Below, one piece after another: positions 6,355-56,903 of a stretch of DNA of 64,000 nt; the stretch's first letter is position 1; each line of letters opens with the position of its first letter. Under the pieces are notes generated by a model, which saw only the letters and a program-made list of their open reading frames with translations, ran no database searches and was not told the DNA's origin. Origin of the DNA: Candidatus Woesearchaeota archaeon. Its GTDB lineage: Archaea; Nanobdellota; Nanobdellia; Tiddalikarchaeales; Tiddalikarchaeaceae. Location of the stretch: NCBI GenBank assembly GCA_964457955.1, contig CAYWEY010000003.1, positions 14,439 through 78,438 on the forward strand, written 5' to 3'. The position numbers and the translations under genes were made by a program.

Positions 6355-6359
6355 TTTAA

Positions 6360-7245: not shown

Positions 7246-7282
7246 GATAATTAATGATATTTTTTTATTTAATAAAATTATT

Positions 7283-11687: not shown

Positions 11688-11726
11688 AAATCCTATTTCT
11701 GGATTCAATAGTATAAAAATTATATC

Positions 11727-19435: not shown

Positions 19436-19635
19436 TAAATAATAATATCTAAAAATAGACTTATAAATATTTTCCTGCAAAAAAAAACCAGAACCATACT
19501 AAAATTTTCATGAATTATTATCCAAAAGAAGCCCGCTTAGTATCATTATCTCTTCACCATAAATCTCATAACACTACCTCATCATATTTTCTTATCTCTT
19601 CCCCAATATTATGGAATTCAACAATTATAGAAAAT

Positions 19636-19869
19636 TTAGTGATTTTCGTATTTGTTAATTAAATCTCTTAATTCATCCCACTTTTTTTTAACATACAATT
19701 TACCAAAAGTTCTTTTATCCTCTTCACTCCAGCCTTTTGTTACAATTGTTCGTAAAGTTATGAATTCTTTATACTTATTGAAATCTCCAACTTTATTTAT
19801 AATGTATTCATCTTTCTTAAATTTCTTGAAATCCTTTACATATTTTTTTATTTTATCAACAAGTTTCAT
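19636..19869 (-). CDS. small K/E-rich hypothetical protein
   Basis: 77 aa; preceded by copy B of the promoter-like motif. Confidence 0.35.
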   Translation of the reverse strand: MKLVDKIKKYVKDFKKFKKDEYIINKVGDFNKYKEFITLRTIVTKGWSEEDKRTFGKLYVKKKWDELRDLINKYENH

Positions 19870-19915
19870 ATTAGAAGAATAAAAGAAAAAAACACACTTA
19901 AAAATATTACTATCT
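19870..19915 (-). promoter_or_regulatory. putative BRE/TATA promoter (copy B of duplicated motif)
   Basis: AAAGAAAAAAACACACTTAAAAATATTACTAT matches copy A in ~35/40 positions. Confidence 0.3.
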
Positions 19916-19989
19916 AGTAGTAAAAAAAAGTATTGAATATCAATTGCATTGGTGGATTAAAAAAACACGACTTCTCCTGTATAACACAA

Positions 19990-34269: not shown

Positions 34270-35553
34270 TTATTTTGGAGTTGTACTTCCCCACTTGTCA
34301 AGAGCTTTTTTTAATTCTTTATGCTTTTCTGCGTATTCTTCTACACTGATGTCTTTCATTATTGCAGTTATTGATTGTCTTAATGCTTTGGCTCCATTAT
34401 GTGTTCCATCAGGATGACCATGAACTCCTCCTCCAGCCTGTATTAATATATTGGAGCCCAATAAGTCAATAAGCCTCTTTATTATTCCCGGATGAAGTCC
34501 TCCACTGCAAGTTCCGAATACAGGTTTTGTACCATACCATTCCTGCTCTAATAATAATTTTCCTTCAGTGTTTGACATTAATGACGTCTTTGTATGATTG
34601 TCACTCACTTCTTTTTTGTCACCCACCAGTTTACCAAGTCCACCTATATGAAGGTTGTCAACACCTATTATTCTTGCTATTTCAGCAATCACTTTCATAC
34701 TCATCCCATGTTTTGGGTTTCTGTCAAAAGCTGCGTGGAATGCGCGGTGAGCATGTATTGCAAGCCCTAATTCTTCGCATTTATCTCTTATAGTCTGGAC
34801 TCCTCCCCACCCAACAGTAAGTATATCAACCATAACGTATTCATTATCATATTCTTTAACAAGTTCTGCTCTTCTTTTCATTTCTTCAGTTTCTGCAGTA
34901 ATGTTCACAAAATAACTTTTTGTTTCTCCTGTCTCTTTCTCTGCTTTCTCCCTCATCTTCATACTTAAGTCAAGTCTTTTCTTAAACTTGTTAAAATTTT
35001 GTGATGTCAAGTTTTCATCATCTTTCAAGAAATCAATTCCTCCAGTCCATGCTTTATAACCAACATCAGCATGTTCTTCTGAATAATACCCTACTTTTGG
35101 TTTAGGAACTGTTGCTGTAAGTGGGCGCTTATCAACTTTCATGAAATCCCTTACACCATTTATTCCAAACTGGGGTCCTTTGAAGCTCTTAATCAATTTT
35201 TTAGGCCAATGAATATCTTCAATTCTTAATCCGTCAATTGCTTTCATTCCAAAAATATTTCCAGCAATACTGCTCAAGATTTGAGGCATATTCCCTTCCT
35301 CGAATAATTCAAATGGGTAAGCTACTTTAACAAAATCCTTATCTATATCATAACAGTGTGCTGATAATTTAGTGATATGCTCAGGAACTCTTAATCCTGC
35401 CCATGTCCCATTGCTAGATTCGCTTGCTACGCGGGCAGCAGCTTTCTCCATGCTAAATCCTTTTGCAGGCGTAATCCTGAATAAGACTATTAAATCATCT
35501 TTTGCAGGCGCATAATTCATGTCAAGAAAATCTTCATACTTTATCGTTATCAT
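34270..35553 (-). CDS. rbcL: ribulose-1,5-bisphosphate carboxylase/oxygenase, form III (archaeal type)
   Basis: GLKDDENL (carbamylated Lys region), HIGGLGKLVG, GGGVHGHPDG; 427 aa. Confidence 0.9.
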   Translation of the reverse strand: MITIKYEDFLDMNYAPAKDDLIVLFRITPAKGFSMEKAAARVASESSNGTWAGLRVPEHITKLSAHCYDIDKDFVKVAYPFELFEEGNMPQILSSIAGNIFGMKAIDGLRIEDIHWPKKLIKSFKGPQFGINGVRDFMKVDKRPLTATVPKPKVGYYSEEHADVGYKAWTGGIDFLKDDENLTSQNFNKFKKRLDLSMKMREKAEKETGETKSYFVNITAETEEMKRRAELVKEYDNEYVMVDILTVGWGGVQTIRDKCEELGLAIHAHRAFHAAFDRNPKHGMSMKVIAEIARIIGVDNLHIGGLGKLVGDKKEVSDNHTKTSLMSNTEGKLLLEQEWYGTKPVFGTCSGGLHPGIIKRLIDLLGSNILIQAGGGVHGHPDGTHNGAKALRQSITAIMKDISVEEYAEKHKELKKALDKWGSTTPK

Positions 35554-36006: not shown

Positions 36007-36093
36007 GCCAGGGTGGCGGAGTCCGGTCAAACGCGTCAGCCTCGAGAGTTGATGAGCTTCGTGCTCGCGCAGGTTCGAATCCTGCTCCTGGCG
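36007..36093 (+). tRNA. tRNA-Ser (anticodon CGA), long variable arm
   Basis: Acceptor GCCAGGG, anticodon loop CUCGAGA, variable stem GAGC/GCUC, T-arm GCAGGUUCGAAUCCUGC. Confidence 0.8.
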
Positions 36094-41816: not shown

Positions 41817-43004
41817 TCAAGAATAAGTATTTTTTTCAGTCATTTCTATTGCTTCTGAAGGACATATAGACGCGCAGCTTCCGCACCCGTCACAATTCTC
41901 TTCATTAATAATAATTTTATCTTCTTCTTTAATAATAGCATCATAATTACAGTATGGTATGCAGGTATAGCATTCATTGCATGTATCTGTGATTTTAGCA
42001 GTTCTTGATATTTCATCCAGACTAAACCAGTCACTTACAGAGCTCACTGATTTACCTATTAATTGGTCAAGAGTTAGTCCCGTATTTTTAAGATAATTTT
42101 TAAGATTTTTTTTCATTTCGTTAATAATATTGTATCCTTTGTTCATTACTTCAGTGCATGCTTGCAGAGTCTTTGCGCCAAGCAATAAGTACTCTACTAT
42201 TGATTCAATTTCTGAAGTCACTCCTCCCATAGCACTTATATGGTATTTCTCATAATTTATACTGCCAGCTACATTAGCAATGCTTGCTCTCGAGAAAGGC
42301 CTTATAATACTTCCTGATATTCCCCCATGTGTTGTTTTCCCACCAGTATTCAGTTTTGGTTTATAAGTATAAATATTGATTGGTGAAAGTCCTGCAATCG
42401 TATTAATTGCTGCAAAGCCATCCGCCCCCGCTTCAACACATTTTTTACTAATGTACCCTTCGTTTGGGTGGGATAAGTAAGTATGTTTCACCAATATCTT
42501 CTTCTCATCTCCAACAACATCCTTAACTGTCCTAGTTAGTAAGGCACATAAATCAGGTTTTTGTCCTATAACAGAGCCTTTACCTTCATGGTCTGCGTGG
42601 GGACAAGAAAAATTAAGTTCGTACAGGTCGGCAGGAGTATTTTTAAAAGCAAGTGATAATTCTCTCCACTCTTTTTTGTCAGGACTTCCGAACAAACTGA
42701 CTCCTAACAAACGATTTGGGTACTCTTCTTTAATCTCGTGCACCCATTCAACCCATTGCTCAACAGAATAGACAGAACCCATTTCATAGTTTTGTGAGCC
42801 AATAACTTTGTTTTTATACTTTAAGTGACATATTCTTGGTGTCTTGTCCTTAAGTTGTTCTATACTAACACTTTTTGTTATTGCACCACCCCAACCCGCC
42901 TTGTACCCGTTAATAATGCTTTCCTTATCTTTTGTTGGAGGCGCGGAAGCAAGTATGAAAGGATTATCCAAACCTATTTCTAAAAAATTAGTCTCCAGAA
43001 CCAT
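41817..43004 (-). CDS. dihydroorotate/dihydropyrimidine dehydrogenase-like TIM-barrel flavoprotein fused to a C-terminal 2x[4Fe-4S] ferredoxin domain
   Basis: N-terminal GLDNPFILASAPPTKDKESI...GWGGAITKSV (DHOD/DHPD family), C-terminal CNECYTCIPYC and CDGCGSCASICP. Confidence 0.55.
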   Translation of the reverse strand: MVLETNFLEIGLDNPFILASAPPTKDKESIINGYKAGWGGAITKSVSIEQLKDKTPRICHLKYKNKVIGSQNYEMGSVYSVEQWVEWVHEIKEEYPNRLLGVSLFGSPDKKEWRELSLAFKNTPADLYELNFSCPHADHEGKGSVIGQKPDLCALLTRTVKDVVGDEKKILVKHTYLSHPNEGYISKKCVEAGADGFAAINTIAGLSPINIYTYKPKLNTGGKTTHGGISGSIIRPFSRASIANVAGSINYEKYHISAMGGVTSEIESIVEYLLLGAKTLQACTEVMNKGYNIINEMKKNLKNYLKNTGLTLDQLIGKSVSSVSDWFSLDEISRTAKITDTCNECYTCIPYCNYDAIIKEEDKIIINEENCDGCGSCASICPSEAIEMTEKNTYS

Positions 43005-43340
43005 ACTAAATTGAAAATAAAAATGATTGTTTAAAAACTTATGTAACTATTTGATAGAAAATAAAAAAAGATTTAATAACAGTAATTTTAAATTAAAATT
43101 ATATGGATGATTTTGGATTAATGTGTTATAATTCTTCATAGAAAGCAAAGAAGAGATTGTTTAATCATAGAAAATACAAGAATAAGTTATTCAATAATCT
43201 GGAAATTTTAATAATGGGTTTGAATAATACAAGAAGTTATACTGAAATAGAAAATACAAAAAAAATAATATTCTGATTATTGAATTGTAAAAATCGTCTG
43301 AAGAAAATTTTTTAATCAATCATTTTCTTATTTTTAAATA

Positions 43341-44381
43341 ATGAAATCAAAAAAGAAAAAAATTGAGCATGAGAAGAGGATTAGTATTGAATTAATTAAG
43401 AGCGGGCTTAATCCAATAATTAGTCCAAACCCGAATAATAATTGGGAGTCTTGGCAGACTTTCAACCCAGCAGCAATACTTCTGGAAGACAAGGTTCACT
43501 TATTATATCGTGCGATTGGAGATAAAGGTGTCTCCTGTTTTGGTTATGCTTCCTCAAAAAATGGTTTAAGAATTGATGAGAGATTGCCTAATCCCGTATT
43601 TACTCATAAATCTGGTGATGGAAAAAAGTCTTATTATTCCCTGGTCTCAGGTGGGAGTTGGAGTGGGTGTGAAGACCCGAGGCTGGTGAGAGTTAATGAT
43701 GATGATAAGATTTATATGACTTACACAGCGTGCGAGAATGGTTTAAGAGTGGGACTGACTTCTATAAGCGTGAAAGATTTTCTGAATCATGAATGGAACT
43801 GGAATAGAGTAAGATTAATCTCTCCTCCTGGAGAAGTGAATAAGAATTGGGTGTTATTTCCTGAAAAAATAAATAATAAGTACGCTATTCTTCACAGTAT
43901 TTCTCCTGAAATATCAATAACTTATTTAAATAATCTTAATTTTGAAAACAATGAATATATAGAAAGTGATTATGAAAGAGTTGTTAATGGTAATTCATGG
44001 GATTCAGTTCTTAGAGGAGTGGGCGCTCCTCCAATAAAGACTGAGAAGGGATGGCTTGTCTTCTACCATGCTATGAGTCCAGGTGAGATGCATAAGTATA
44101 AAGTAGGAGTGATGCTACTTGATTTAAAAAATCCTACTAGAATAGTTCATAAACATTCTAAACCAGTTCTGGAGCCGGAAGAAGATTATGAGTGGGAGGG
44201 ATTCAAAGGCGGCGTCGTTTATGTTTCAGGTGTAGTTGTTAAAGACGGAGAACTCTTTGTTTATTTTGGTGGTGCAGACAATTATGTTTGCGTAGCACAT
44301 ACTAATTTGCAGAAATTCCTGAAAGCAGTAATATATGATAAAAAATTAGTACTGAAAAAAGACAGGGTTTTGGAAAAATGA
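43341..44381 (+). CDS. GH130-family glycoside hydrolase/phosphorylase (5-bladed beta-propeller)
   Basis: FNPAAILLEDKVHLLYRA, GCEDPRLVRV, YMTYTA, GAPPIKTEKGWLVFYHA motifs. Confidence 0.6.
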   Translation: MKSKKKKIEHEKRISIELIKSGLNPIISPNPNNNWESWQTFNPAAILLEDKVHLLYRAIGDKGVSCFGYASSKNGLRIDERLPNPVFTHKSGDGKKSYYSLVSGGSWSGCEDPRLVRVNDDDKIYMTYTACENGLRVGLTSISVKDFLNHEWNWNRVRLISPPGEVNKNWVLFPEKINNKYAILHSISPEISITYLNNLNFENNEYIESDYERVVNGNSWDSVLRGVGAPPIKTEKGWLVFYHAMSPGEMHKYKVGVMLLDLKNPTRIVHKHSKPVLEPEEDYEWEGFKGGVVYVSGVVVKDGELFVYFGGADNYVCVAHTNLQKFLKAVIYDKKLVLKKDRVLEK

Positions 44382-46297
44382 TAATAAAAAGATGCAAAGA
44401 TAATCCGGTTCTTAAACCAGATAATAAAAGATTCTGGGAAGCTCAAGCAGTTTTTAATGGTTGTCCTGTGAAAAAAGATTCTAAAACGTATTTATTATAC
44501 AGAGCTATCTCCCTGCCTTATTTTGATACTCCTGCGGATAAGAGGATGGAAATATCCAGTATAGGAATAGCTGATAGTAATGACGGAATACATTTTAAGA
44601 ACAGGAAAAGATTCATAATGCCGGAAAAGGAATGGGAGAAGTATGGTTGTGAAGACCCGAGAATAACTAAGTTAAATAATAAGTATTATATTTTCTACAC
44701 TGCTTTATCAACACACCCTTTCTCTGCTCAAGGAATTAAAGTAGGATTGGCTGTAAGCAAGGATTTGAAGACAATTGAAGAAAGACACTTAATCACTCCT
44801 TTCAATGCTAAAGGATTTGCATTATTTCCTGAAAAAATAGAAGGTAAGTATTGGGCAATACTGACAGTTCATACTGATATGCCTCCTGCAAAAATATGTT
44901 TGATAAGTTTTGATAAAGAAGAAGAGATGTGGGATGAAGACTACTGGAAAAAATGGTATGAGGATTATGATAGTCATTCTCTGGGATTGCAGAGGAAACC
45001 GCAAGACCATATAGAGGTTGGTGCGCCTCCGATAAAAACAAAAGAAGGATGGTTATTATTCTATTCTTACATAAGGAATTATTTATCAAATGAAAGGTTC
45101 TTTGGAGTGGAAGTAGTTCTGCTTGATTTAAAAAATCCTTCAAAAATAGTTGCTCGCTTAGAGATGCCAATACTTGGTCCGCATGAATATTATGAAAGAA
45201 TAGGTATGGTTCCAAACGTTGTCTTTCCTTCAGGTGCTGTGAAGAACAAGGATTTAATACACTTATATTATGGTGCGGCGGACACAACATGCTGCAGGGC
45301 GGATATAAGAGAGAGTTATCTGCTTAATTACATGCTCAGGAAAGGTCCGAAAATAAAGTTCAAAAGATTCAAGAATAATCCGATAATAACGCCAAAAGAA
45401 GAGAATAGTTGGGAGACTCTGGCAACATTTAATCCAGCAGCAGTACGTATTAATGATAAAGTTCATATATTATATAGAGCAATGTCTGATGATAATACTT
45501 CAGTCTTGGGTTATGCAATAAGTAAGAATGGTAAAAAAATAGATTATCGTTCAGATAAGCCAGCTTATGTTCCGAGAAAATCATTTGAGGAGAAAAAAAA
45601 TCCTGGAGGAAATTCTGGATGCGAAGATCCGAGACTGACAATTATTGGTGACAAAGTTTACATGTTCTACACAGCTTATGATGGGGTTAATTCACCGAGA
45701 GTTAGTTTTACATGGATAAAGAAGAATGATTTTTTGAAACAGAAATGGGATGAGTGGGTGGAGCCTAAAATAATATCTCCTCCCAATATGGATGACAAGG
45801 ATGCCTGCCTATTTCCTGAAAAAATTGATAATAATTATTATATAATTCATAGAACAGGTGATGACATGGATTTAGCTGTTGTTCCTGACCTCGAGTTCGG
45901 TGAGAACGAGTGGATTGAAGACCTTATATGGATTAAGCCCAGAAATGGTTGGTGGGACAGTAAGAAAGTTGGTGTTGCAGCACCACCATTAAAAATTGAT
46001 GATAATTGGTTAATCCTGTATCATGGTGTTTCAGAAAAAAGTATTTACAGAGTAGGAGCAGTATTAGTTAGTGGAAAAGACCCTTTCAATATTCTTGCCA
46101 GGACTTATGAACCATTATTTGAGCCTGAAGAATCTTATGAAAAAAAAGGAATAGTATCAAATGTTGTTTTCCCGTGCGGTGCAGTAATTATTGATGATGA
46201 ATTACTATTATACTATGGTGGGGGAGACAAAGTCACAGGCGTTGCAAGTATAAAAGTTAATGACTTATTTAAGAAATTAAAAAACAAAAGAATTTAA
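44378..46297 (+). CDS. tandem double GH130-family domain protein
   Basis: 639 aa = two GH130 units (GCEDPRITKL / GAPPIKTKEGW and FNPAAVRINDKVHILYRA / GCEDPRLTII / AAPPLKIDDNW); 4-nt overlap with upstream GH130 gene. Confidence 0.6.
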   Translation: MIIKRCKDNPVLKPDNKRFWEAQAVFNGCPVKKDSKTYLLYRAISLPYFDTPADKRMEISSIGIADSNDGIHFKNRKRFIMPEKEWEKYGCEDPRITKLNNKYYIFYTALSTHPFSAQGIKVGLAVSKDLKTIEERHLITPFNAKGFALFPEKIEGKYWAILTVHTDMPPAKICLISFDKEEEMWDEDYWKKWYEDYDSHSLGLQRKPQDHIEVGAPPIKTKEGWLLFYSYIRNYLSNERFFGVEVVLLDLKNPSKIVARLEMPILGPHEYYERIGMVPNVVFPSGAVKNKDLIHLYYGAADTTCCRADIRESYLLNYMLRKGPKIKFKRFKNNPIITPKEENSWETLATFNPAAVRINDKVHILYRAMSDDNTSVLGYAISKNGKKIDYRSDKPAYVPRKSFEEKKNPGGNSGCEDPRLTIIGDKVYMFYTAYDGVNSPRVSFTWIKKNDFLKQKWDEWVEPKIISPPNMDDKDACLFPEKIDNNYYIIHRTGDDMDLAVVPDLEFGENEWIEDLIWIKPRNGWWDSKKVGVAAPPLKIDDNWLILYHGVSEKSIYRVGAVLVSGKDPFNILARTYEPLFEPEESYEKKGIVSNVVFPCGAVIIDDELLLYYGGGDKVTGVASIKVNDLFKKLKNKRI

Positions 46298-46570: not shown

Positions 46571-47839
46571 TTATTCGTAAGTTATTGCTTTTATCGGGTC
46601 AAGATGAGATGCTTTCCTTGCAGGAAGATATCCTGAAAGAGCCCCAATAACAATACTAAGAAGCAATGAATAAAACAGTATATTAAAACTTATTGCTAAT
46701 CTTATACCATTAGATAATCCTGGAAGCACCGCAGGAGCAAAACTAACCATTATTTGAGCCAATCCAATACCCATAATTATACCACCAAAACCCCCTATTA
46801 AACTTATTAATACAGACTCAACAAGAATTAATAATATAATATCCAGATTCTTAGCACCAATCGCTTTCATAATACCAATTTCACGAGTCCTCTCATAAAC
46901 ACTAGTAAACATAGTATTAGATATTGAAACCACACCAACCAACAAACTAATTGCAGCAATACCCGTCAATAACATTGTTATAGTATTCAAAACATCACCC
47001 ACCATACTCATCTTAGAAACACTTTCTAAAATATGAAAATCCTCCTCATCCCATTCACTAATATCATGAGTATTGCGCAATGCTTCTTTTATCAAAACAG
47101 AAGTCTCATTAACAACATCCTGACTTGAAGCACGAACAGTTATACTATCATAACTTTCATCCCAACCCTCATCAAACAACTCAACATTATCAACAATCAT
47201 AAACACACTATCATCCGAACCACCCCTACCCTGCTCTTCAAGTATACCTGCAACGCGAAACTCCTCACTATACTCATCACCACTCTCATCTTCAAACAAC
47301 AAAATATCCCCAACAAAAACTTCCTCATCAAAAACCTCATGAGCAATACGATAACCAATAACAATCTTGTCCTCATCATTATCATCCATAAAATAACCCT
47401 CTTCAAAATCAAAACTCTCAATCACCTCATACTCTGAAGGAATAACAAAATTAACAGAGACAGTAATACTCTCATCCTCAAACTCCATTCTCAAACGCTC
47501 ACTCACCAGAGGACTAACAGCAACAATATTCGGAAGAGTCAAGAGTTCATCAACATCCTCATCTGTCAAAACTGCTTCCCCATTATCATATTCATTATTC
47601 TTATATCCTCCTGGACGCATCCTACTCGCTTCCTGCGCACTACCCGGCAATACTTGAATATTCTCAGTGCCAAAAGCACTGAACTGCTCATTCAAACTTA
47701 CATTAATACTCTCGCCAAGACTCATTAATCCAACAACACTCGCTATACCAATAACTATACCAAGAATAGTCAACCAGCTACGCAATCCTTTAAAACCAAT
47801 ATTCTTTAATGATAATGATAAAACATCCCTAAGTCTCAT
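46571..47839 (-). CDS. ABC transporter permease, MacB/FtsX-type with periplasmic domain
   Basis: N-terminal TM + MacB_PCD-like extracytoplasmic domain + C-terminal FtsX 3-TM bundle. Confidence 0.8.
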   Translation of the reverse strand: MRLRDVLSLSLKNIGFKGLRSWLTILGIVIGIASVVGLMSLGESINVSLNEQFSAFGTENIQVLPGSAQEASRMRPGGYKNNEYDNGEAVLTDEDVDELLTLPNIVAVSPLVSERLRMEFEDESITVSVNFVIPSEYEVIESFDFEEGYFMDDNDEDKIVIGYRIAHEVFDEEVFVGDILLFEDESGDEYSEEFRVAGILEEQGRGGSDDSVFMIVDNVELFDEGWDESYDSITVRASSQDVVNETSVLIKEALRNTHDISEWDEEDFHILESVSKMSMVGDVLNTITMLLTGIAAISLLVGVVSISNTMFTSVYERTREIGIMKAIGAKNLDIILLILVESVLISLIGGFGGIIMGIGLAQIMVSFAPAVLPGLSNGIRLAISFNILFYSLLLSIVIGALSGYLPARKASHLDPIKAITYE

Positions 47840-47852
47840 TCCCCACTACTCC

Positions 47853-49253
47853 TTACTTCTTTTTCCTTTTCTTAATAATTACATAACTAACCACAACAAC
47901 AAATACTACTCCAATAAAACCAAGTCCTGCATAAACTCCAGTCCAATCAACAGTTCCCTGATTCTTAAAACCACCTCCCCCCTGCTTAAAATCTTCAGGC
48001 ATGTCGGGAGTAGCAAAACTCGTAGTTGCTTGACTATCATAAATTATCTCTTTTGTAATGTTCTCAACCATTCTCTGACCCAACTGATTCGTGAAACTAA
48101 TCTCAAAACCCAAATCAATCAATCCTTCAGAAACCATCTCCTGCCGAGCCCCCCTCCTCTCCTGCATACTCATATTCTCACCTTTTAATGTAAAAGTAAA
48201 ACTGGACGTTGAATAATCACCAGGCACCAAATCACCCACAAAATCCTGATTAACACTCCCAATACCAATATTCCCATTATCCCTTATAGATAATACAACA
48301 GAATCCGCATCAACAGTACCAATATTAGCAAGAGTCACCCTCACTTTAACTTCAGAACTATCCTTACTGAAAGAAACATCCTTAATCAACAATTCAAAAG
48401 GAGAACCCCCCTCAATATTCGCCCCAAAACTACTTTCAGAACTATACTCATCACTATCACTCTCATAACTCAAGTTAACAACAGACTCATGCATTCCAGT
48501 ACTCACAGAACTATCCGAAACAAGCTCCAAAACAACATCCTGACTCTCACCACCAAAAATATCATCTAAAACAATAACATTAGATGATGAGTGAGTGCTA
48601 AAAGTATCAGAATCAAAACTCAACTCAACATTCTCTGCTTCAACAACACCTGAATTCTTAACAGTCAATATTAATTGAAAAACTTCTCCAGGAGTAATCT
48701 CCTCATCAGACAAAACAATATCTGAAATAATCAAGTTCGGCTCTATACGCGAATTCTCTATCTCAAAAAATTCCTTATAACTCACATGTTTCCCAAAATC
48801 CTCATCAGAACCATCATAACTAGGCCTTGTTGAATATCTTATACTAAAATATGCTGAATAATAATCTGTAGTAATATTCTCAGGAATCTCTATCTTATAA
48901 ATCAGTTGTTTAGAATCACTTCCATAAACATCACCAACAGGTTCATAACAACTACTAGGATATTCTAAACAAACCCTTCTGGATAAACTAAATTTATTAC
49001 AACTCTCACACTCCATACTACACTCAAGAGGAGAATCAACACTATCAAGAACAATCTCAGTATTATAAGCTGGGTTCGTCCCATCATTATTCAATATAAT
49101 TTTTAGATAACCCGTCCCGCCAGGCTCCATTCCAACAACTTCCGAACTAATCTGCAATACAGGGTTTTCAGGAGTAGCTCCCGAACAAAAATTAATTAAC
49201 AACAAACTAACCAATATAACTGCTACCGGTCTTAACTTCATATTCACCATCAC
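47853..49253 (-). CDS. large secreted/cell-surface protein with C-terminal TM anchor (COG1361/DUF11-like)
   Basis: Signal peptide, beta-rich S/T/D-rich extracellular region, C-terminal TM helix + KKRKKK stop-transfer. Confidence 0.45.
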   Translation of the reverse strand: MMVNMKLRPVAVILVSLLLINFCSGATPENPVLQISSEVVGMEPGGTGYLKIILNNDGTNPAYNTEIVLDSVDSPLECSMECESCNKFSLSRRVCLEYPSSCYEPVGDVYGSDSKQLIYKIEIPENITTDYYSAYFSIRYSTRPSYDGSDEDFGKHVSYKEFFEIENSRIEPNLIISDIVLSDEEITPGEVFQLILTVKNSGVVEAENVELSFDSDTFSTHSSSNVIVLDDIFGGESQDVVLELVSDSSVSTGMHESVVNLSYESDSDEYSSESSFGANIEGGSPFELLIKDVSFSKDSSEVKVRVTLANIGTVDADSVVLSIRDNGNIGIGSVNQDFVGDLVPGDYSTSSFTFTLKGENMSMQERRGARQEMVSEGLIDLGFEISFTNQLGQRMVENITKEIIYDSQATTSFATPDMPEDFKQGGGGFKNQGTVDWTGVYAGLGFIGVVFVVVVSYVIIKKRKKK

Positions 49254-49932
49254 TTATCACCTTTCCATCAAGCATTTTAATAACACGAGGCGCTTGCCTC
49301 GCAATCTTAGGATCATGAGTCACAACAATCAAAGTATTACTATTATTCCATAATTTCTTGAACAATTTAACCACTTCCTTACCAGTCTTGCTATCCAAAT
49401 TACCAGTAGGCTCATCAGCAAAAATTATCTTCGGATTATTCGCTAATGCACGAGCAATAGCAACTCTCTGCCGCTGACCACCCGACAATTGTCCAGGAAG
49501 ATGGTCACATCTTTCTCCAAGACCCACATTCTTAAGCAGTTTCCTCGCCCTCTCCTTACGATCACCATCCTCCTCACCCGCAAAAATCATAGGTAATTCA
49601 ACATTCTCAAGAGCAGTCAAATTAGGTGTTAAGAAAAAAAACTGGAAAACAAAACCAATATTCTCACTTCTCAAATGAGTAAGTTCATCATCACTTAATT
49701 CATCAACTTTAGAACCGTTTATGAAAACATTCCCCTTTGTAGGCATGTCCAATAATCCCATAACATGCATAAGAGTACTCTTACCACATCCAGACGGACC
49801 GTAAACAGCGATGAACTCACCTTCTTCAACTTCCAAACTAACACCATTAACTGCTTTCACAATATTACTCTTGCCAAGACGATAATACTTCTTCACATTC
49901 TTCAACTCGATTATCTTATTATTATCACTCAT
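49207..49932 (-). CDS. ABC transporter ATP-binding protein (MacB/LolD-like)
   Basis: GPSGCGKSTL Walker A, LSGGQRQRVAIARAL signature, IFADEPTGNLD Walker B; likely start at MSDNNK (49932), not the ORF-track start 49962. Confidence 0.85.
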   Translation of the reverse strand: MSDNNKIIELKNVKKYYRLGKSNIVKAVNGVSLEVEEGEFIAVYGPSGCGKSTLMHVMGLLDMPTKGNVFINGSKVDELSDDELTHLRSENIGFVFQFFFLTPNLTALENVELPMIFAGEEDGDRKERARKLLKNVGLGERCDHLPGQLSGGQRQRVAIARALANNPKIIFADEPTGNLDSKTGKEVVKLFKKLWNNSNTLIVVTHDPKIARQAPRVIKMLDGKVISDGEYEVKTGSSYIG

Positions 49933-49973
49933 GAATAATATTTCATAATACTGAAACAGCATATTAAACTAAC

Positions 49974-51300: not shown

Positions 51301-52298
51301 TCAACCAAGTTTCTCATTATAGAAACAATTTGGATCTGAATTAAATAATGATCCTGTTTTATAGAATGAACTTGCTCTGCATCCCCCACAAAAATATTTA
51401 GAATTACAAGAGCCACAAGGGCCATTAAATGAAGTTCTATTCCTTAATCTTTTCAAAACTTTATTATTAAACCAGATATCATTTAATGATTCATTGAAAA
51501 CATTGGCCAAAACGTATTTAATGAAAGGACAAGGCAAAACATCACCATTAGAACAAATATAAATTGATGCCACTCCTGCAATACATCCCCCAGTTATTCC
51601 TTTTCTTTTATTACTTTCAAGTAGTTTAAATCTATCATCATCAACCAAAAATAAAAGAACATTAGAGCATTTGATCAGTTTATTATTTTTTTTAATTTTT
51701 GATATCTTCTTAAGAGCTTTTTGCAATTCTTTTGGATTTAATGTTTCATTTTCAAAGGAATTGTTAACCGGGACCAGACGATTGATTCCTATTTCAACAT
51801 TCATTTCAGAAGCAAATTTATCTAATTCATCTAATGAATTAATCAATGATTTATGTAATGCTGCTTGAAGTGTAACCTTAATGTTATTATTTTTAAGTAA
51901 TTCAATTTTACTAATCAAATCTGACAAATAATTCTCTCTAAAACAAGATTCATCCCCTGGAGGCACATCAATACTCAATTGAATTGAATCAAATACTTTT
52001 AATTGGTTAATATTATTTTCATTTATCAACAAACCATTAGTCATCAAGATTAATTTAGGAAAATCTTTTTGCTTAGCATATATAGCATATTCAAATAATT
52101 CTTTAACCATTAATGGCTCCCCCCCCCAGTAAATACTAACCTATAAACTTCAAGTTCTTTTAATTCATCAATCAAACTAAAAACTTTTTCAGGATTTAAT
52201 TTTTTTACAGGATTACGTCTAACATAACAATGCTTACAATCAAGATTGCATTCATTTGTTAATTCTATTTCAACTATATGAAGCCCTTTATTTTCCAT
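51301..52298 (-). CDS. radical SAM / SPASM-domain enzyme (paralog 3), interrupted by a frameshift in a C9 run
   Basis: N-terminal ORF (52110-52298) ELTNECNLDCKHCY (CxxxCxxC)...VFTGGG stops inside a C9 run; C-terminal ORF (51301-52110) has SPASM cysteines CIAGVASIYICSNGDVLPC...CGSCNSKYFCGGCRA. Confidence 0.6.
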
Positions 52299-53352
52299 CT
52301 CTCAAACCATAAATAACACAATAAGGGTCACCTCTAAAAGGATCACCTAATAATTTATCCGCAAAAGCCCTACACCCACCTGTGCATAATCTCAATAAAT
52401 CACATTTACTACACTTATCTTCTTTTGGGATGAAATAACGAAACTTTTTCATAACACTTGAGTCTTTCCAAACTTTTAATAAATCATCAGTAAGCGCATT
52501 ACCACACAAAAACTTTTCTGATTTGAAATAATTACACGGAACAATATACCCACTAGCAGTTATAACCATTTTAAATCTCCCAGCCATACAAAAAGGAATT
52601 TTTATTCTATCAAGTTCGTTTAAAAAAATTAAAGCATGATTTGGTTTGATTTTAATATCTAATTTTTTAATTTTTTGGTATATGGTATAAAACTCTCTCC
52701 ATTCTTTTTTAGATAAAATATATTTATGTCTTGATTCACCACAAGGGATCATATCTAATAAATGTAATTCCATATAATCTCTTTTTTTAACAAAAGAAGC
52801 TAATTCAAAAATTTCCTTATAATTTAATTTATTAACAACACATGCGATTGATATTTTATTTTTATCAAAATACTTCTCTAACAATTCTAAAGAATCAAAC
52901 AATTTTTTAAGTAAATCCTTCCCTCCTCTTATTTCATCCTGTTTATTTAAACTATCGATATTAACATTAATTTTATCAAAACCAATTTCTCCAATCCTTT
53001 TAGCAATTAATTTATTAATTAATAATAAGTTTGTATTTAGATGAACTTTTATTCCATTTCTTTTTAAAGAATCCGCAAGTTCTAAAAGAATTTCCGCTCT
53101 AATCAATGGTTCACCTCCAGAAAATGAAACATACAAAGGATTTAATTGATTAATGATTTTTTTATTAATAATTCTTAACTCATCATTATTTAATTCTCTT
53201 TTTTTAAAACAATTATCTTTATTATAACAATAAACACAATCAAGATTGCATTTGTTAGTTAAATCAAATTGTACTTGTGCAGGTCTAGTAAATAAATATT
53301 CAAAATCAGATAATTTCTTAGAATTAGTTAAATCAAATTTTGGATTCATCAA
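52288..53352 (-). CDS. radical SAM / SPASM-domain enzyme (paralog 2)
   Basis: FDLTNKCNLDCVYCYN (CxxxCxxC), SFSGGEPL, SPASM CMAGRFKMVITASGYIVPC...CSKCDLLRLCTGGCRA. Confidence 0.75.
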   Translation of the reverse strand: MMNPKFDLTNSKKLSDFEYLFTRPAQVQFDLTNKCNLDCVYCYNKDNCFKKRELNNDELRIINKKIINQLNPLYVSFSGGEPLIRAEILLELADSLKRNGIKVHLNTNLLLINKLIAKRIGEIGFDKINVNIDSLNKQDEIRGGKDLLKKLFDSLELLEKYFDKNKISIACVVNKLNYKEIFELASFVKKRDYMELHLLDMIPCGESRHKYILSKKEWREFYTIYQKIKKLDIKIKPNHALIFLNELDRIKIPFCMAGRFKMVITASGYIVPCNYFKSEKFLCGNALTDDLLKVWKDSSVMKKFRYFIPKEDKCSKCDLLRLCTGGCRAFADKLLGDPFRGDPYCVIYGLRDGK

Positions 53353-53390
53353 TTAAATCCAAGAGAATATTTATTCTTAAATATTTCTAA

Positions 53391-53492
53391 CTAATCTCCA
53401 TTTAATTCACAAACAGAACTCAAAACTTCTTCAACAGATAATTTCCATGAGTCTTCATTTGAATCTTCTGTTTTTTTAGTTGCTTCTTCCAT
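53391..53492 (-). CDS. candidate precursor peptide (33 aa; below ORF-track cutoff): MEEATKKTEDSNEDSWKLSVEEVLSSVCELNGD
   Basis: ATG..TAG ORF in the 165-nt gap between the methyltransferase and rSAM paralog 2, same strand; acidic leader-like N-half, single Cys near C-terminus. Confidence 0.3.
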   Translation of the reverse strand: MEEATKKTEDSNEDSWKLSVEEVLSSVCELNGD

Positions 53493-53517
53493 AAACAAGT
53501 GTAATTACTATCAATAT

Positions 53518-54294
53518 TTATAAACTTTTTCTTAAAATGTAATATTGCCTGCTAAGGTGTTTTTGTTCATCCCAATATATCTTGGATTCATCAATTATTT
53601 CCAACACTTCAAAACCAATATCGTTAACAATACTTTCGATCTCACTTGACGAATAACCTCGTTCCACATGTTTTTCTTTAATTTCTTTTTCACCTTTTTT
53701 TAGTATTATATCCAAACACCATATATTTTCTTCTCCACTGAAATTAAATGTGATATTATTCCTCCCTATATTAAAAATTCTTTGTGGTGCATTACTTGAC
53801 ACACTTACATGCTCTTTTGTATTCATATCAAATATGAAATAAGCTCCTTTGTTTAAATGGTCATAGACCTTCTTAAAAACCTTTTTTAAATCGTCAATAG
53901 ATAATAAATAATTAAGTGAATCATAAAATGATACTGCCAGATCAAATTTTTTAGGAATATTAAAAGTTCTTAAGTCACTGATTACAAAATTAATCTTATC
54001 ATTATATGCTTTAAGTTTTTCTTTTGCGAGATTAATCATATATTTTGATTTATCAACACCTACTACATTAAAATCTAACTCTAATAACATCTTAGAAATC
54101 GTCCCTGTCCCACAAGCAAGATCTATTGCATTTCCTTTAATACTATACTTTTTAACTTGTTCTTTAATAAGATCATTCCATTTATCGTATTTCGATGAAG
54201 TCATTAATTCATCATAAAGATTTGAGAATTCAATTCCATAATTATTTGGTTGTTTCATTTTGATGACTGTATGAAAACCTACAGAAACCTCCAC
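53518..54294 (-). CDS. class I SAM-dependent methyltransferase (Methyltransf_11/25-like)
   Basis: IDLACGTGTISKML motif I, VGVDKS, LAVSFYDSLNY. Confidence 0.7.
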   Translation of the reverse strand: MEVSVGFHTVIKMKQPNNYGIEFSNLYDELMTSSKYDKWNDLIKEQVKKYSIKGNAIDLACGTGTISKMLLELDFNVVGVDKSKYMINLAKEKLKAYNDKINFVISDLRTFNIPKKFDLAVSFYDSLNYLLSIDDLKKVFKKVYDHLNKGAYFIFDMNTKEHVSVSSNAPQRIFNIGRNNITFNFSGEENIWCLDIILKKGEKEIKEKHVERGYSSSEIESIVNDIGFEVLEIIDESKIYWDEQKHLSRQYYILRKSL

Positions 54295-55417
54295 ATCTTA
54301 TTTCATCCTTATTGATATCACACTCTTCACAAAGCGGAATTAAAAATTTTTCTGTCTCTTCTAATAAATCAGAAATTACTCTTTCAGGAATATATTCATT
54401 TAAATTACCTAATTTTGAGTTTCTATCCATCACACAAGGATATAAATATCCTTTAACATCTATCGATATCCTCTTTCTAATACCACACCCATACCATCTT
54501 GATTCGGGTATTGTTTTTTTAGTTGCTAAAAATCCGTTACGGACGTGTTTATTACTTAAATATTGTTTCAATACAATATGAGCATCTTTTGAATTAATTT
54601 TATTAAACACAGCATTTCCTGTTTTAATTGCAGGTCTCAAATGAAGAGTGGTATTAAAATTTTTGGCCAAATTTATAAGTTTTGGAACATCTGAATAATT
54701 GTGGTCTCCAAGAGTAGTTACTAAATATTCTGGGATATTGTTCTCACATAATTTTTCTAAACCAATCAACAAATCATCAAATAAACCTTTTCTTTTACGA
54801 ATCGTATCATGGTTTTTTCCATAACCATCTATGCTTACAGCAAGACCAAGACTATTTTTTAATGTTTTAAAAAAGTCTTCATTTTTATTTTTTAATTGAC
54901 CTCCATTTGTAACAATATAATAATTTCTTCCATTATTATCTATTCTTTTAAGAATTTCTTGCAAATCATTTCTAAGAAGAGGTTCTCCCCCAGTTACTTC
55001 AAAAACCATCAAACCTAAATCACACAATTTATCAACTCTTTCTAATAAATCCTTTTTACTTGGCGAACCTTTATTCAAATCTTTTTTATGATAACAAGCT
55101 TTACAATCACAATCACAATTTGATGTTGCTTCTAACAAAACTTGTGAAGGCAAGAGATCGTTATCAACCTTAAAAGTTTTAACATAATTATTATTGTTCT
55201 CAATAATTATCCCGCTTTGATATAATCTAACTAAATCTTTTGTTGAAACTTGTGAGAAGTCATTATTTAACAATGATTTTGTTGTTTTTTTATCAACCCA
55301 AAAAAATGATGCATAAAGACCAGGAGTTACTATTGTACTTCCTGAAGGTTCTTGTCTTATTATTGTCTTTTCATCGAATCCTAATTTATAAAAATCAATA
55401 TTTTTAATTATATCCAA
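54242..55417 (-). CDS. radical SAM / SPASM-domain enzyme (paralog 1) with ~100-aa N-terminal extension (possible RRE-like substrate-binding domain)
   Basis: LLEATSNCDCDCKACY (CxxxCxxC), VTGGEPLL, SPASM WYGCGIRKRISIDVKGYLYPC...CEEC...CGGFC; 53-nt overlap with methyltransferase. Confidence 0.75.
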   Translation of the reverse strand: MDIIKNIDFYKLGFDEKTIIRQEPSGSTIVTPGLYASFFWVDKKTTKSLLNNDFSQVSTKDLVRLYQSGIIIENNNNYVKTFKVDNDLLPSQVLLEATSNCDCDCKACYHKKDLNKGSPSKKDLLERVDKLCDLGLMVFEVTGGEPLLRNDLQEILKRIDNNGRNYYIVTNGGQLKNKNEDFFKTLKNSLGLAVSIDGYGKNHDTIRKRKGLFDDLLIGLEKLCENNIPEYLVTTLGDHNYSDVPKLINLAKNFNTTLHLRPAIKTGNAVFNKINSKDAHIVLKQYLSNKHVRNGFLATKKTIPESRWYGCGIRKRISIDVKGYLYPCVMDRNSKLGNLNEYIPERVISDLLEETEKFLIPLCEECDINKDEIRCGGFCRFSYSHQNETTK

Positions 55418-56828: not shown

Positions 56829-56903
56829 TGCCCCCTCCGGGATTCGAACCCGGGTCGTCGGCTTGAAAGGCCGATATCCTTAACCGGACTAGACGAAAGG
56901 GGC
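56829..56903 (-). tRNA. tRNA-Glu (anticodon TTC)
   Basis: Acceptor GCCCCUU/AGGGGGC, anticodon stem-loop UCGGC-CUUUCAA-GCCGA, T-arm CCGGGUUCGAAUCCCGG. Confidence 0.8.

What the first reader, a model, noticed from the sequence alone, without database searches (positions are those of the whole stretch)
43341..46297. Three GH130 domains in a row (one single-domain gene plus one double-domain gene)
GH130 enzymes are mannoside/beta-1,2- or beta-1,4-mannooligosaccharide phosphorylases or hydrolases. Triplication with an internal fusion points to expanded capacity for mannan or N-glycan-derived mannoside use. This fits a symbiont scavenging host glycans, with the glycogen-debranching-like GH at 29521-31068 nearby.
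Basis: partly seen in the sequence, partly recalled or inferred. Interest (0 to 1): 0.5.

Follow-up and report, generated by a model that had tools for sequence, protein, structure and literature searches.

The report
Conserved three-domain GH130 mannoside-phosphorylase operon
Two overlapping genes of a small-genome archaeon encode three different versions of a mannoside-splitting enzyme domain; the same trio recurs in hundreds of ultra-small bacteria and archaea, only one version keeps the phosphate-using site, and the set has apparently never been studied.

Summary
ORF A (43341-44381, 346 aa) holds one GH130 domain. ORF B (44378-46297, 639 aa) holds two, called BN and BC here. The genes overlap by 4 bp (ATGA).

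This is not a local triplication. The ordered set A | BN-BC recurs in 76 of 81 loci from CPR bacteria, DPANN archaea and a few other reduced-genome lineages. At least 597 species-representative genomes encode B relatives. Orthologues are 60-71% identical, while the three domain types are only 34-42% identical to each other. Natural single-chain A-BN-BC fusions exist.

All three types keep the proton-donor Asp, the -1 subsite residues and the Glu/Lys pair diagnostic of beta-1,2-mannosides (99-100%). Only BC keeps the phosphate ligands Arg, Lys/Arg, His and Tyr. A has Ser in place of the key Arg. BN has lost all four ligands, gained two invariant Glu and carries a helical insertion.

Recurrent neighbours are a cupin mannose-6-P isomerase (27/81 loci) and a PMM-type HAD (about 21/81), and PMM-A fusions exist.

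Best reading: a cytoplasmic beta-1,2-mannoside / Man1P module feeding Fru6P, built from one canonical phosphorylase plus two specialised paralogues. Scavenging of mannan or N-glycan and a link to the GDE gene are not supported. I found no published characterisation.

The parts
43005..43340 (+). AT-rich intergenic region upstream of ORF A, shared divergently with the DHODH-like gene at 41817-43004(-). The T/A-rich stretch TTTTTTAAT at 43308-43316 lies about 25-33 nt before the ATG and could be an archaeal TATA box for a near-leaderless transcript.
   Evidence: Sequence read. This is inference only, because such a motif is weak evidence in a genome with 29% GC.
43341..44381 (+). ORF A, 346 aa: a single GH130 domain of type 'A'. 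It has no signal peptide; the N-terminus MKSKKKKIEHEKR is highly charged.
   Evidence: ORF. PF04041 E 2.2e-39. 9fj8 E 1.5e-44. Orthologues are 55-64% identical in CPR and DPANN.
43674..43676 (+). Codon of A D112, the proton-donor Asp of the GCEDPR motif. E111 precedes it and is the +1-subsite Glu.
   Evidence: Alignment to Uhgb_MS E136/D137 and to Teth514_1788. 100% conserved in 181 orthologues.
43896..43898 (+). Codon of A S186, at the position of the phosphate-binding Arg (UhgbMP R168 / Uhgb_MS R202).
   Evidence: Ser 85%, Arg 7%, Asn 4% among 181 A orthologues. H243 (82%) and Y253 (100%) are retained. R225 (91%) sits one residue after the second basic position.
44378..44381 (+). ATGA start/stop overlap between ORF A and ORF B, which suggests translational coupling.
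   Evidence: Across 76 loci with an upstream A gene, the commonest A-B spacings are +1 bp (12 loci) and -4 bp (11 loci).
44378..46297 (+). ORF B, 639 aa: two GH130 domains fused (BN then BC), with no signal peptide.
   Evidence: 69 of the top 120 homologues are exactly 639 aa. AF2 pLDDT 92.4, pTM 0.82.
44378..45340 (+). BN domain (B residues 1-321): a GH130 propeller. It keeps the proton donor D93, E92, K145, N27, R42 and D302 but lacks every phosphate ligand (T163, H211, S230, F242).
   Evidence: PF04041 E 2e-45. Residue map and frequencies. It is the most conserved of the three types, with 71% mean identity among orthologues.
44918..44977 (+). BN-specific insertion (B residues about 181-200), predicted to form three short helices. 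It precedes the DHIEVGAPP strand.
   Evidence: MSA shows about 17 extra residues, conserved in BN orthologues and absent from A, BC and the reference enzymes. DSSP gives H181-185, H187-195 and H197-200.
45014..45016 (+). Codon of BN E213. This Glu is 99% conserved where canonical phosphorylases have the Gly of R/K-V-G. It lies on the same strand face as the former basic phosphate ligand (H211).
   Evidence: Strand register from DSSP: strands 211-214 in BN and 530-533 in BC both start 6 residues before the PP motif. The side-chain direction is an inference.
45110..45112 (+). Codon of BN E245. This Glu is 98% conserved where canonical enzymes have the Gly of Y-R-x-G.
45341..46297 (+). BC domain (B residues 322-639): a canonical beta-1,2-mannoside-phosphorylase-type GH130 with E416, D417, K474, R492, K530, H549, Y557 and D617.
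   Evidence: PF04041 E 3.5e-53. 9fj8 E 3.8e-56 and 7fip E 1.7e-52. All listed residues are 96-100% conserved in 298 orthologues.

Best explanation
The two genes form one operon. It encodes a cytoplasmic, three-propeller GH130 module (A | BN-BC) that interconverts beta-1,2-linked mannosides and alpha-mannose-1-phosphate. Man1P connects to central metabolism through a PMM-type mutase (Man1P to Man6P) and a cupin mannose-6-P isomerase (Man6P to Fru6P). In many other genomes these two enzymes are encoded in the same operon.

The three domains are not redundant copies.
- BC is a standard inverting beta-1,2-mannoside phosphorylase. Its Asp proton donor acts through the mannose O3, and phosphate is held by Arg492, Lys530, His549 and Tyr557.
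- A keeps the sugar subsites and the proton donor but has Ser at the key phosphate Arg. It probably uses an altered leaving group or nucleophile site, for example a different chain-length or donor preference. A GDP-Man or other transferase-like activity is possible.
- BN keeps the sugar subsites and the proton donor. It has replaced the whole phosphate pocket (Thr, His/Gln, Ser, Phe), gained two invariant Glu and added a helical insertion. It most likely works without phosphate, as a hydrolase or transglycosylase acting on the same beta-1,2-mannoside.

Shown: domain identity, residue patterns, conservation, gene order, fusions and neighbours. Inferred: the substrate (beta-1,2-mannoside), the direction of flux, the activities of A and BN, and physical association of A with B.
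For: 1. Family and fold.

2. Residue mapping was made on alignments to Uhgb_MS (E136, D137, K184, R202, R242, H261) and to Teth514_1788/1789. Residue roles come from PMC7660257, PMC12814180 and PMC4599007.

3. Frequencies in 181 A and 298 B orthologues:
- The proton donor Asp, the +1 Glu, the beta-1,2 Lys, the -1 Asn and the C-terminal Asp are 99-100% conserved in all three types.
- BC: R 100%, K 96%, H 100%, Y 100%.
- A: S 85% at the Arg position.
- BN: T 90%, H/Q 97%, S 92%, F 99%, plus E213 99% and E245 98%.

4. BN is the most conserved type (71% among orthologues, against 34-37% to the other two types). It is therefore under purifying selection and is not decaying.

5. The module is ordered and fixed. 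A lies directly upstream of BN-BC in 76 of 81 loci, and in 60 of these the spacing is between -60 and +30 bp. The same 4-bp overlap occurs in a Jorgensenbacteria contig.

6. Rosetta-stone fusions exist. A-BN-BC occurs as a single chain (P0086, P0241, P0242, P0243), A0-A-BN-BC as P0246, and PMM/HAD-A as P0177 and P0208.

7. Neighbours: cupin MannoseP_isomer in 27 of 81 loci, PMM/Hydrolase_3 HAD in about 21 of 81, nearly always adjacent and on the same strand, and bact-PGI_C in 2 loci.

8. There is a precedent for tandem GH130 paralogues that divide labour by chain length: Teth514_1788/1789 (PMC4264767).
Against: - No biochemical data exist for any member, so the substrate is inferred from a two-residue signature and from 36-44% identity to characterised enzymes.
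- NCBIfam's beta-1,2-mannobiose phosphorylase equivalog model is not reached per domain. A scores 202 bits against a 450-bit cut-off, and B reaches 450 only as the sum of two domains.
- This 64-kb window contains no PMI-cupin or PMM-HAD homologue, so the pathway link rests on other genomes.
- BN does not carry Glu at the exact positions used by the characterised GH130 hydrolase BT3780, by my spacing-based mapping. It also lacks the signal peptide typical of those hydrolases.
- The AlphaFold2 model of a natural triple fusion folds all three propellers (pLDDT 90.9) but does not place A confidently (pTM 0.62; linker 323-330 has low confidence). Physical association of A with B is therefore unsupported in silico. 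That MSA was shallow and unpaired.
Confidence: 0.6

Rival explanations
1. Storage-polymer cycle (mannogen-like). The module makes and degrades an endogenous cytoplasmic beta-1,2-mannan reserve. One of the non-canonical domains (A or BN) would prime or elongate chains, or trim them hydrolytically. BC would release Man1P on demand. This parallels the Leishmania GT108 array, in which paralogues with and without the phosphate-pocket Arg divide synthesis and phosphorolysis.
For: - Both proteins look cytoplasmic.
- No transporter or solute-binding protein recurs near the module. Only PMI, PMM and PGI/PMI do, and these serve either direction.
- The module occurs across lineages with very different hosts and habitats.
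- The paralogues differ exactly at the phosphate pocket. This resembles GT108 MTP1/2 (His) against MTP3/4/6/7 (Arg) (PMC10913872; PMC12814180).
- GH130 beta-1,2 phosphorylases synthesise long beta-1,2-mannans by reverse phosphorolysis and have weak GDP-Man transferase activity (PMC12814180).
Against: - No beta-1,2-mannan has been reported in CPR or DPANN in the library searched.
- No GDP-mannose pyrophosphorylase or glycosyltransferase recurs next to the module.
- In GT108 the Arg/His position alone does not decide GT versus GP activity (PMC10913872).
- Net synthesis by reverse phosphorolysis needs a high Man1P/Pi ratio.
Confidence: 0.2
2. A lineage-specific expansion of redundant GH130 phosphorylases increases the capacity to scavenge host-derived beta-1,4-mannan or N-glycan (Man-beta-1,4-GlcNAc) fragments, working together with the nearby GDE-like glycosidase.
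For: GH130 does include beta-1,4-mannooligosaccharide and Man-GlcNAc phosphorylases (PMC7660257). The organism looks like a reduced-genome DPANN-type archaeon. A GDE-like gene lies 12 kb away.
Against: - The three domains are ancient distinct types, each with its own orthologues in more than 100 other genomes.
- All three have the Glu/Lys pair that marks beta-1,2 specificity, not the Tyr/Arg pair that marks beta-1,4 (PMC7660257).
- Two of the three lack phosphorylase residues.
- GDE is not a recurrent neighbour, and unrelated genes separate it from the module here.
Confidence: 0.07
3. A and BN are catalytically dead pseudo-enzyme domains. They would serve only as scaffold or regulatory subunits of a hetero-oligomer whose single active site is in BC.
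For: Both lack canonical phosphate ligands. GH130 enzymes work as dimers to hexamers (PMC12814180; PMC8950772), so paralogous subunits could replace homo-oligomer partners. Fixed gene order and fusions point to a complex.
Against: The proton-donor Asp and every mapped -1 and +1 sugar-binding residue are 99-100% conserved in A and BN across several hundred orthologues. BN has acquired two invariant Glu at the former phosphate pocket. A scaffold would not need this pattern.
Confidence: 0.1

Closest known systems
Teth514_1788 (1,2-beta-oligomannan phosphorylase, PDB 9FJ8) and Teth514_1789 (beta-1,2-mannobiose phosphorylase, PDB 7FIP) of Thermoanaerobacter sp. X-514, CAZy GH130_6
   Same: - They are the best sequence and structure matches for all three domains: E 1e-39 to 1e-57, TM 0.88-0.90, 36-44% identity.
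- They share the five-bladed propeller, the E-D-P-R proton-donor motif and the beta-1,2 Lys, and lack the GH130_4 lid loop.
- BC shares all phosphate ligands, including Lys at the R242 position as in Teth514_1789.
- They are also adjacent paralogous genes with divided roles (PMC4264767).
   Different: - The Thermoanaerobacter pair are two separate canonical phosphorylases. They sit in a cluster with an ABC importer, a GH5, a Man1P guanylyltransferase and a GT4.
- Here there are three domain types, two of them fused and two with non-canonical phosphate pockets.
- The recurrent neighbours here are PMI and PMM. No importer and no guanylyltransferase recurs.
GH130_3 beta-1,2-mannosidases BT3780 / BACOVA_03624 (PDB 5A7V, 3QC2)
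   Same: Like BN, they keep the Asp, the +1 Glu and the beta-1,2 Lys. They have lost the basic phosphate ligands and have a pair of Glu facing the anomeric carbon (PMC4599007).
   Different: - BT3780 has Glu at the two former Arg positions (E227 about R202, E268 about R242, by my spacing-based mapping). BN has Thr and His/Gln there, and its two Glu replace neighbouring Gly residues.
- The hydrolases are secreted and sit in polysaccharide utilisation loci. BN has no signal peptide and is fused to a phosphorylase.
- Foldseek TM to 5a7v is 0.70, against 0.90 to 9fj8.
Leishmania GT108 mannosyltransferase/phosphorylases (MTP1-7), the mannogen cycle
   Same: They form an array of paralogous five-bladed propellers related to GH130, acting on beta-1,2-mannan. 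Some keep the phosphate-pocket Arg (phosphorylases) and others replace it (strict GDP-Man transferases). Together they run a cytoplasmic reserve-polymer cycle through Man1P (PMC10913872; PMC12814180).
   Different: They belong to a different CAZy family. A Leishmania homologue (2b4w) matches the B model only at 15% identity, E 1e-8. The MTPs are separate genes, not fused. No mannan and no transferase activity has been demonstrated for the CPR/DPANN module.
GH130-GH130 bimodular entries in CAZy
   Same: Tandem GH130 modules in one polypeptide are already recorded: 4 GH130-GH130 sequences among 1592 CAZy entries in 2018. In that study the two modules of each protein fell in the same SSN meta-node (PMC7660257).
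   Different: - Those were treated as duplicated equivalents and predicted to be phosphorylases.
- Here BN and BC are only about 36% identical and differ in the catalytic pocket.
- They also come with an obligate third partner gene.
- I could not check whether any of the CAZy entries belongs to this family, because no supplement was held.

Membership tests
CAZy GH130 / Pfam PF04041 | Significant match to the family profile over the full domain | tested here: met
   A E 2.2e-39 (profile positions 11-317 of 320), BN E 2e-45, BC E 3.5e-53. The gathering score is 26 bits.
CAZy GH130 / Pfam PF04041 | Five-bladed beta-propeller fold | tested here: met
   For ORF B: AF2 pLDDT 92.4, and each half superposes on 9fj8/7fip with TM 0.88-0.90. 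For an A-type domain: it folds with high pLDDT inside the P0241 model. ORF A of the window itself was not modelled.
CAZy GH130 / Pfam PF04041 | Conserved proton-donor Asp (UhgbMP D104 / Uhgb_MS D137) | tested here: met
   A D112, BN D93 and BC D417, each 100% conserved in its orthologues.
GH130 glycoside phosphorylases (criteria of Li et al. 2020, PMC7660257) | Phosphate-binding Arg/His pair (UhgbMP R168 / H231) | tested here: not met
   Met only by BC (R492 and H549, both 100%). A has S186 (85%) with H243 (82%). BN has T163 (90%) and S230 (92%). The module as a whole is therefore not three phosphorylases.
GH130 glycoside phosphorylases (criteria of Li et al. 2020, PMC7660257) | No signal peptide; no carboxylate base | tested here: inconclusive
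   Neither ORF has a hydrophobic N-terminus (read directly from the sequences; no predictor was run). BC and A show no extra carboxylate at the mapped positions. BN has two invariant Glu near the pocket.
Beta-1,2-specific GH130 (E/K rule, PMC7660257 and PMC4599007) | Glu next to the proton donor, and Lys at the UhgbMP R150 position | tested here: met
   E111/K168 in A, E92/K145 in BN, E416/K474 in BC, all 99-100% conserved. This is a predictive rule, not an assay.
NCBIfam NF052550 beta-1,2-mannobiose phosphorylase (equivalog) | Whole-protein score at or above the curated cut-off of 450 bits | tested here: not met
   A scores 201.7 bits. B scores 450.2 bits only as the sum of two domains. No single domain qualifies as an equivalog.
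GH130_3 beta-1,2-mannosidases (BT3780 type) | Glu at both former basic phosphate positions (E227, E268); secreted | tested here: not met
   BN has Thr163 and His/Gln211 at those positions and has no signal peptide. Its Glu213 and Glu245 are at other positions. The mapping of the BT3780 residues rests on residue spacing, not on a displayed alignment.
GH130_4 (Lin0857 / Uhgb_MS type) | Lid loop of about 48 residues over the active site | tested here: not met
   The Lin0857 and Uhgb_MS matches begin only at about chain residue 132-133, and no lid-sized insertion appears against Teth514_1788/9 in the MSA. Loop description from PMC12814180. The domains are closest to GH130_6, but no CAZy subfamily classifier was available.
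GT108 (Leishmania MTP) | Sequence membership in the family | not tested
   The only evidence is a distant structural hit to a Leishmania protein (2b4w, 15% identity, E 1e-8). I treat GT108 as a functional analogue only.

The most novel reading that the evidence does not exclude
CPR bacteria and DPANN archaea, and other reduced-genome symbionts that carry the module, keep a cytoplasmic beta-1,2-mannan reserve analogous to Leishmania mannogen. They would build and mobilise it without ATP through Fru6P, Man6P, Man1P and mannan. The enzyme would be a hetero-oligomer of three GH130 paralogues that have split the priming or trimming, elongation and phosphorolysis steps between a phosphate-free site (BN), a modified site (A) and a canonical phosphate site (BC). 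The module would have spread between the two domains of life by horizontal transfer.
Probability: 0.2. Interest if true: 0.8.

Novelty: new variant of a known kind. Interest (0 to 1): 0.55.

Why it matters
CPR bacteria and DPANN archaea have very few carbohydrate-active enzymes and often incomplete upper glycolysis. Even so, hundreds of them keep this two-gene, three-domain module at 60-70% identity across the Bacteria/Archaea divide. That level of retention points to a core function rather than an accessory glycan-foraging trait.

If the module is an ATP-free entry into, or exit from, the hexose-phosphate pool through Man1P, it changes how carbon and energy budgets of these organisms should be reconstructed.

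For enzymology, the family offers three natural paralogues with identical sugar subsites but three different nucleophile pockets. This is a ready-made system for studying how phosphorylase, hydrolase and transferase chemistries diverge within GH130. Annotation pipelines currently call these proteins 'hypothetical', 'glycosidase' or 'GH43/DUF377'.

Tried and rejected
1. Literature. Four full-text searches combined GH130, DUF377, PF04041 or mannoside phosphorylase with CPR, DPANN or lineage names. The only result was a passing mention of 'two enzymes of family GH130' in a Microgenomates genome (PMC7143001). The supplement of PMC7660257, which lists the GH130-GH130 CAZy entries, is not held.

2. 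Organism name. An exact-sequence look-up of six window proteins returned singleton clusters without names. The lineage is therefore only 'archaeon, DPANN-like', from the rRNA, RNase P RNA and composition.

3. PMI and PMM in the window. HMMs built from the neighbour clusters found nothing among the window ORFs.

4. A:B docking. MAFFT twice aligned the A orthologues onto the BC part of the triple fusion (alignments A2 and A3). A third alignment (A4) placed them correctly. The resulting model gave pTM 0.62, which is uninformative about the quaternary arrangement. No model coordinates are returned, so I could not superpose phosphate or mannose from 9GPH onto the BN and A pockets.

5. Mobile-element route. 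tblastn against phage and plasmid collections found only distant single-domain GH130 genes below 33% identity, plus one unrelated tandem on a Gemmatirosa plasmid at 27% identity.

6. The C-terminal extension of about 420 aa on the Dehalococcoidia BN-BC fusions has no Pfam match.

7. Pseudogene or decay of BN was rejected, because BN is the most conserved of the three types.

8. The NJ tree of B proteins is star-like. It shows archaeal sequences in at least three places among CPR sequences, but it is too poorly resolved to count transfers, and several MAG taxon labels look unreliable.


Full report
**1. What is in the window**

The region holds two intact ORFs on the + strand. ORF A (43341-44381) is 346 aa and ORF B (44378-46297) is 639 aa. 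The ATG of B overlaps the TGA of A in an ATGA.

Pfam Glyco_hydro_130 matches A once (E 2.2e-39) and B twice. When B is split, residues 1-321 give E 2e-45 and residues 322-639 give E 3.5e-53. I call the three domains A, BN and BC.

The closest solved structures for all three are the Thermoanaerobacter beta-1,2-mannoside phosphorylases Teth514_1788 (9fj8) and Teth514_1789 (7fip). An AlphaFold2 model of B is confident (pLDDT 92.4, pTM 0.82). Its halves superpose on 9fj8/7fip with target-normalised TM 0.88-0.90.

Neither protein has a hydrophobic N-terminus.

The contig is archaeal. An archaeal LSU rRNA lies at 19992-22935(-) and an archaeal RNase P RNA at 19163-19434(-). GC is about 29%, which fits a DPANN-type organism.

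**2. It is a conserved module, not a local triplication**

- ORF B has thousands of relatives. The top 120 are nearly all 635-644 aa (69 are exactly 639 aa), are 60-70% identical, and come from many CPR/Patescibacteria lineages and from Nanoarchaeota. All are annotated as hypothetical or 'GH43/DUF377'.
- ORF A has its own orthologues at 55-64% identity in CPR, Nanoarchaeota, Aenigmatarchaeota and Pacearchaeota.
- I built HMMs for the three domain types and classified ORFs in the 80 retrieved loci plus the window. The A gene sits directly upstream of BN-BC on the same strand in 76 of 81 loci. In 60 of these the spacing is between -60 and +30 bp. The commonest spacings are +1 bp and the same -4 bp overlap seen here.
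- Within a type, orthologues are 60% (A), 69% (BC) and 71% (BN) identical. Between types the figure is only 34-42%. Identity to Teth514_1788/9 is 36-44%.
- The three domains are therefore ancient paralogues kept together.
- Archaeal B sequences appear in at least three places among CPR sequences in a poorly resolved NJ tree. This suggests inter-domain transfer but does not prove it.
- Carriers also include TM6/Dependentiae, Babeliales, a Rhabdochlamydiaceae genome and Dehalococcoidia.

**3. Fusions and variants**

- Natural single-chain A-BN-BC proteins exist: P0086 (1110 aa), P0241 (971 aa), P0242 (978 aa) and P0243 (996 aa). A four-domain protein, P0246 (1281 aa), also exists.
- In 16 of the 80 retrieved loci the A gene is about 610-640 aa. 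It carries an extra, highly diverged N-terminal GH130-like domain, which I call A0.
- Two A orthologues (P0177, P0208) are fused to a PMM/Hydrolase_3 HAD domain.
- Dehalococcoidia have BN-BC fused to a C-terminal region of about 420 aa with no Pfam match.
- These fusions argue that A and B act together and that Man1P/Man6P interconversion belongs to the same pathway.

**4. Genomic neighbours**

I clustered the four genes on each side of the module in 81 loci. Three families recur:
- a cupin of about 116 aa matching the mannose-6-phosphate isomerase C-terminal domain, in 27 loci;
- PMM/Hydrolase_3-type HAD proteins, in about 21 loci;
- an ABC ATPase, in 12 loci.

The isomerase and HAD genes are nearly always adjacent to the module and on the same strand. 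A bifunctional PGI/PMI-type SIS protein occurs in two loci.

No solute-binding protein, sugar permease, GDP-mannose pyrophosphorylase or glycosyltransferase recurs.

In this window the flanks are unrelated. Upstream and divergent is a DHODH-like Fe-S protein. Downstream and convergent is a MacB/FtsX ABC system with a CARDB surface protein. No PMI or PMM homologue is present in the 64 kb.

**5. Active-site comparison**

Residue roles come from three papers:
- Li et al. 2020 (PMC7660257): proton donor D104; phosphate ligands R168 and H231; +1 determinants Y/E103 and R/K150; D304.
- Ladeveze et al. 2025 (PMC12814180): Uhgb_MS R47, E136, K184, R202, R242.
- Cuskin et al. 2015 (PMC4599007): BT3780 N74, D142, E227, E268, Y302, F344, D363, K199, R89, E141.

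I verified the Uhgb_MS numbering on the displayed alignment. I then aligned 60 orthologues of each type with the reference enzymes and counted residues in 181 A and 298 B orthologues.

| Position (Uhgb_MS numbering) | A | BN | BC |
|---|---|---|---|
| -1 Asn, YRA Arg, +1 Glu, proton-donor Asp, beta-1,2 Lys, C-terminal Asp | 99-100% | 99-100% | 99-100% |
| R202 (key phosphate Arg) | Ser186, 85% (Arg 7%) | Thr163, 90% | Arg492, 100% |
| R242 (second basic ligand) | hydrophobic; Arg225 (91%) one residue later | His/Gln211, 97% | Lys530, 96% (as in Teth514_1789) |
| H261 (phosphate His) | His243, 82% | Ser230, 92% | His549, 100% |
| Y269 (phosphate Tyr) | Tyr253, 100% | Phe242, 99% | Tyr557, 100% |

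BN has two further features:
- It has two nearly invariant Glu (E213 99%, E245 98%) at positions that are Gly in every canonical enzyme.
- It has a conserved insertion of about 17 residues, predicted helical (residues 181-200).

In the model, strand 211-214 of BN and strand 530-533 of BC have the same register relative to the PP motif. H211 therefore occupies the Lys/Arg position. E213, two residues later, should face the same side. That last step is an inference.

The Glu/Lys pair predicts beta-1,2 linkage for all three domains by the published rule.

**6. Interpretation**

- BC is a standard beta-1,2-mannoside phosphorylase.
- A and BN bind the same kind of sugar and keep the proton donor, but differ at the place where phosphate would attack.
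- BN resembles the route by which GH130 hydrolases arose, namely loss of basic residues and gain of carboxylates. It uses different positions, is cytoplasmic and is fused to a phosphorylase.
- A resembles the partial loss seen in strict GT108 transferases. That position alone is known not to decide activity (PMC10913872).
- With the PMI and PMM neighbours and fusions, the most economical reading is a cytoplasmic pathway: beta-1,2-mannoside, Man1P, Man6P, Fru6P.
- The direction of flux is open. It could be catabolism of an imported mannoside or turnover of an endogenous beta-1,2-mannan reserve like Leishmania mannogen. The lack of associated importers and the breadth of carriers make the reserve idea worth testing. 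There is no direct evidence for it.
- A model of a natural triple fusion folded all three propellers (pLDDT 90.9) but did not fix the position of A (pTM 0.62). A stable A:B complex therefore remains an inference from gene order and fusions.

**7.

It is partly supported. The family assignment and the general link to mannoside metabolism are right. Four parts are not supported:
- expanded capacity through triplication;
- beta-1,4-mannan or N-glycan substrates;
- three phosphorylases;
- an association with the GDE-like gene 12 kb away.

**8. Novelty**

GH130, tandem GH130 genes with divided roles (Teth514_1788/9) and GH130-GH130 bimodular proteins are all known.

What I did not find described is this fixed three-type module, its distribution across CPR and DPANN, or the non-canonical pockets of A and BN. 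I rate it a new variant of a known kind, with interest about 0.55. It is of real value to CAZyme enzymologists and to people reconstructing CPR/DPANN metabolism, but it lies within a known fold, family and chemistry.

Noticed in passing
window 19163-22935 (-): A complete archaeal LSU rRNA (19992-22935) lies directly next to an archaeal RNase P RNA (19163-19434). Rfam found no SSU or 5S rRNA anywhere in the 64 kb, so the rRNA genes appear unlinked, as is often reported for DPANN.
   Followed up: no
window 11726-11895 (-): A tRNA match spans 170 nt for a 71-position model, which implies a long intron. Four other tRNAs lie at 6359-6430, 12398-12472, 36007-36093 and 56829-56903.
   Followed up: no
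window 34270-35553 (-): A RuBisCO large-subunit homologue (RuBisCO_large E 1e-83) sits in a small heterotroph-like archaeal genome. It is presumably the form II/III or III type used in nucleotide (AMP) salvage, but the form was not determined.
   Followed up: no
It is not linked to the GH130 operon, either here or in the 80 related loci.
   Followed up: partly
window 51301-55417 (-): A cluster of three radical-SAM and/or SPASM proteins (51301-52110, 52288-53352, 54242-55417) plus a class I methyltransferase (53518-54294). It may be a peptide- or cofactor-maturation cluster.
   Followed up: no
window 46571-49962 (-): Convergent with ORF B lies a MacB/FtsX-type ABC permease (46571-47839), a 466-aa CARDB-domain protein with an N-terminal hydrophobic stretch and a C-terminal TM anchor (47853-49253), and an ABC ATPase (49207-49962). 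ABC ATPases recur near the module in 12 of 81 loci, but at varying positions and on varying strands.
   Followed up: partly
window 13112-14854 (-): A 580-aa membrane protein with a PMT_2 (GT-C, dolichyl-phosphate-mannose-type mannosyltransferase) match, E 2e-9. It is a possible consumer of activated mannose in the same genome.
   Followed up: no
loci L054, L055, L058, L060, L062-L065, L067-L070, L074, L077, L079, L080 (A gene at about 6000-8000 in most of these loci): In 16 of the 80 retrieved genomes the A gene is about 610-640 aa. It carries an extra, strongly diverged N-terminal GH130-like domain ('A0'), giving four GH130 domains in a row. P0246 (1281 aa) fuses all four. L080 has an additional single-domain GH130 gene (7102-7983) between A and B.
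   Followed up: partly
proteins P0299, P0332, P0333, P0341, P0345, P0347 (Dehalococcoidia, about 1057-1061 aa): BN-BC is fused to a conserved C-terminal region of about 420 aa that has no Pfam match. It is an unknown partner domain of the module.
   Followed up: partly
loci L003/L004/L009 (Nanoarchaeota), genes after B at L003 7914-9051: In these archaea B is followed by a cupin PMI and a Cof-type HAD-IIB hydrolase. The A orthologue (P0126, 537 aa, with an extra N-terminal region of about 150 aa) lies elsewhere on the same contig, so the A-B adjacency is broken there.
   Followed up: partly
plasmid NZ_CP007130.1 (Gemmatirosa kalamazoonensis) 898499-900538: A single 2-kb stretch matches the whole of ORF B at only 27% identity. 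It is probably an independent GH130-GH130 tandem unrelated to the CPR/DPANN family.
   Followed up: no
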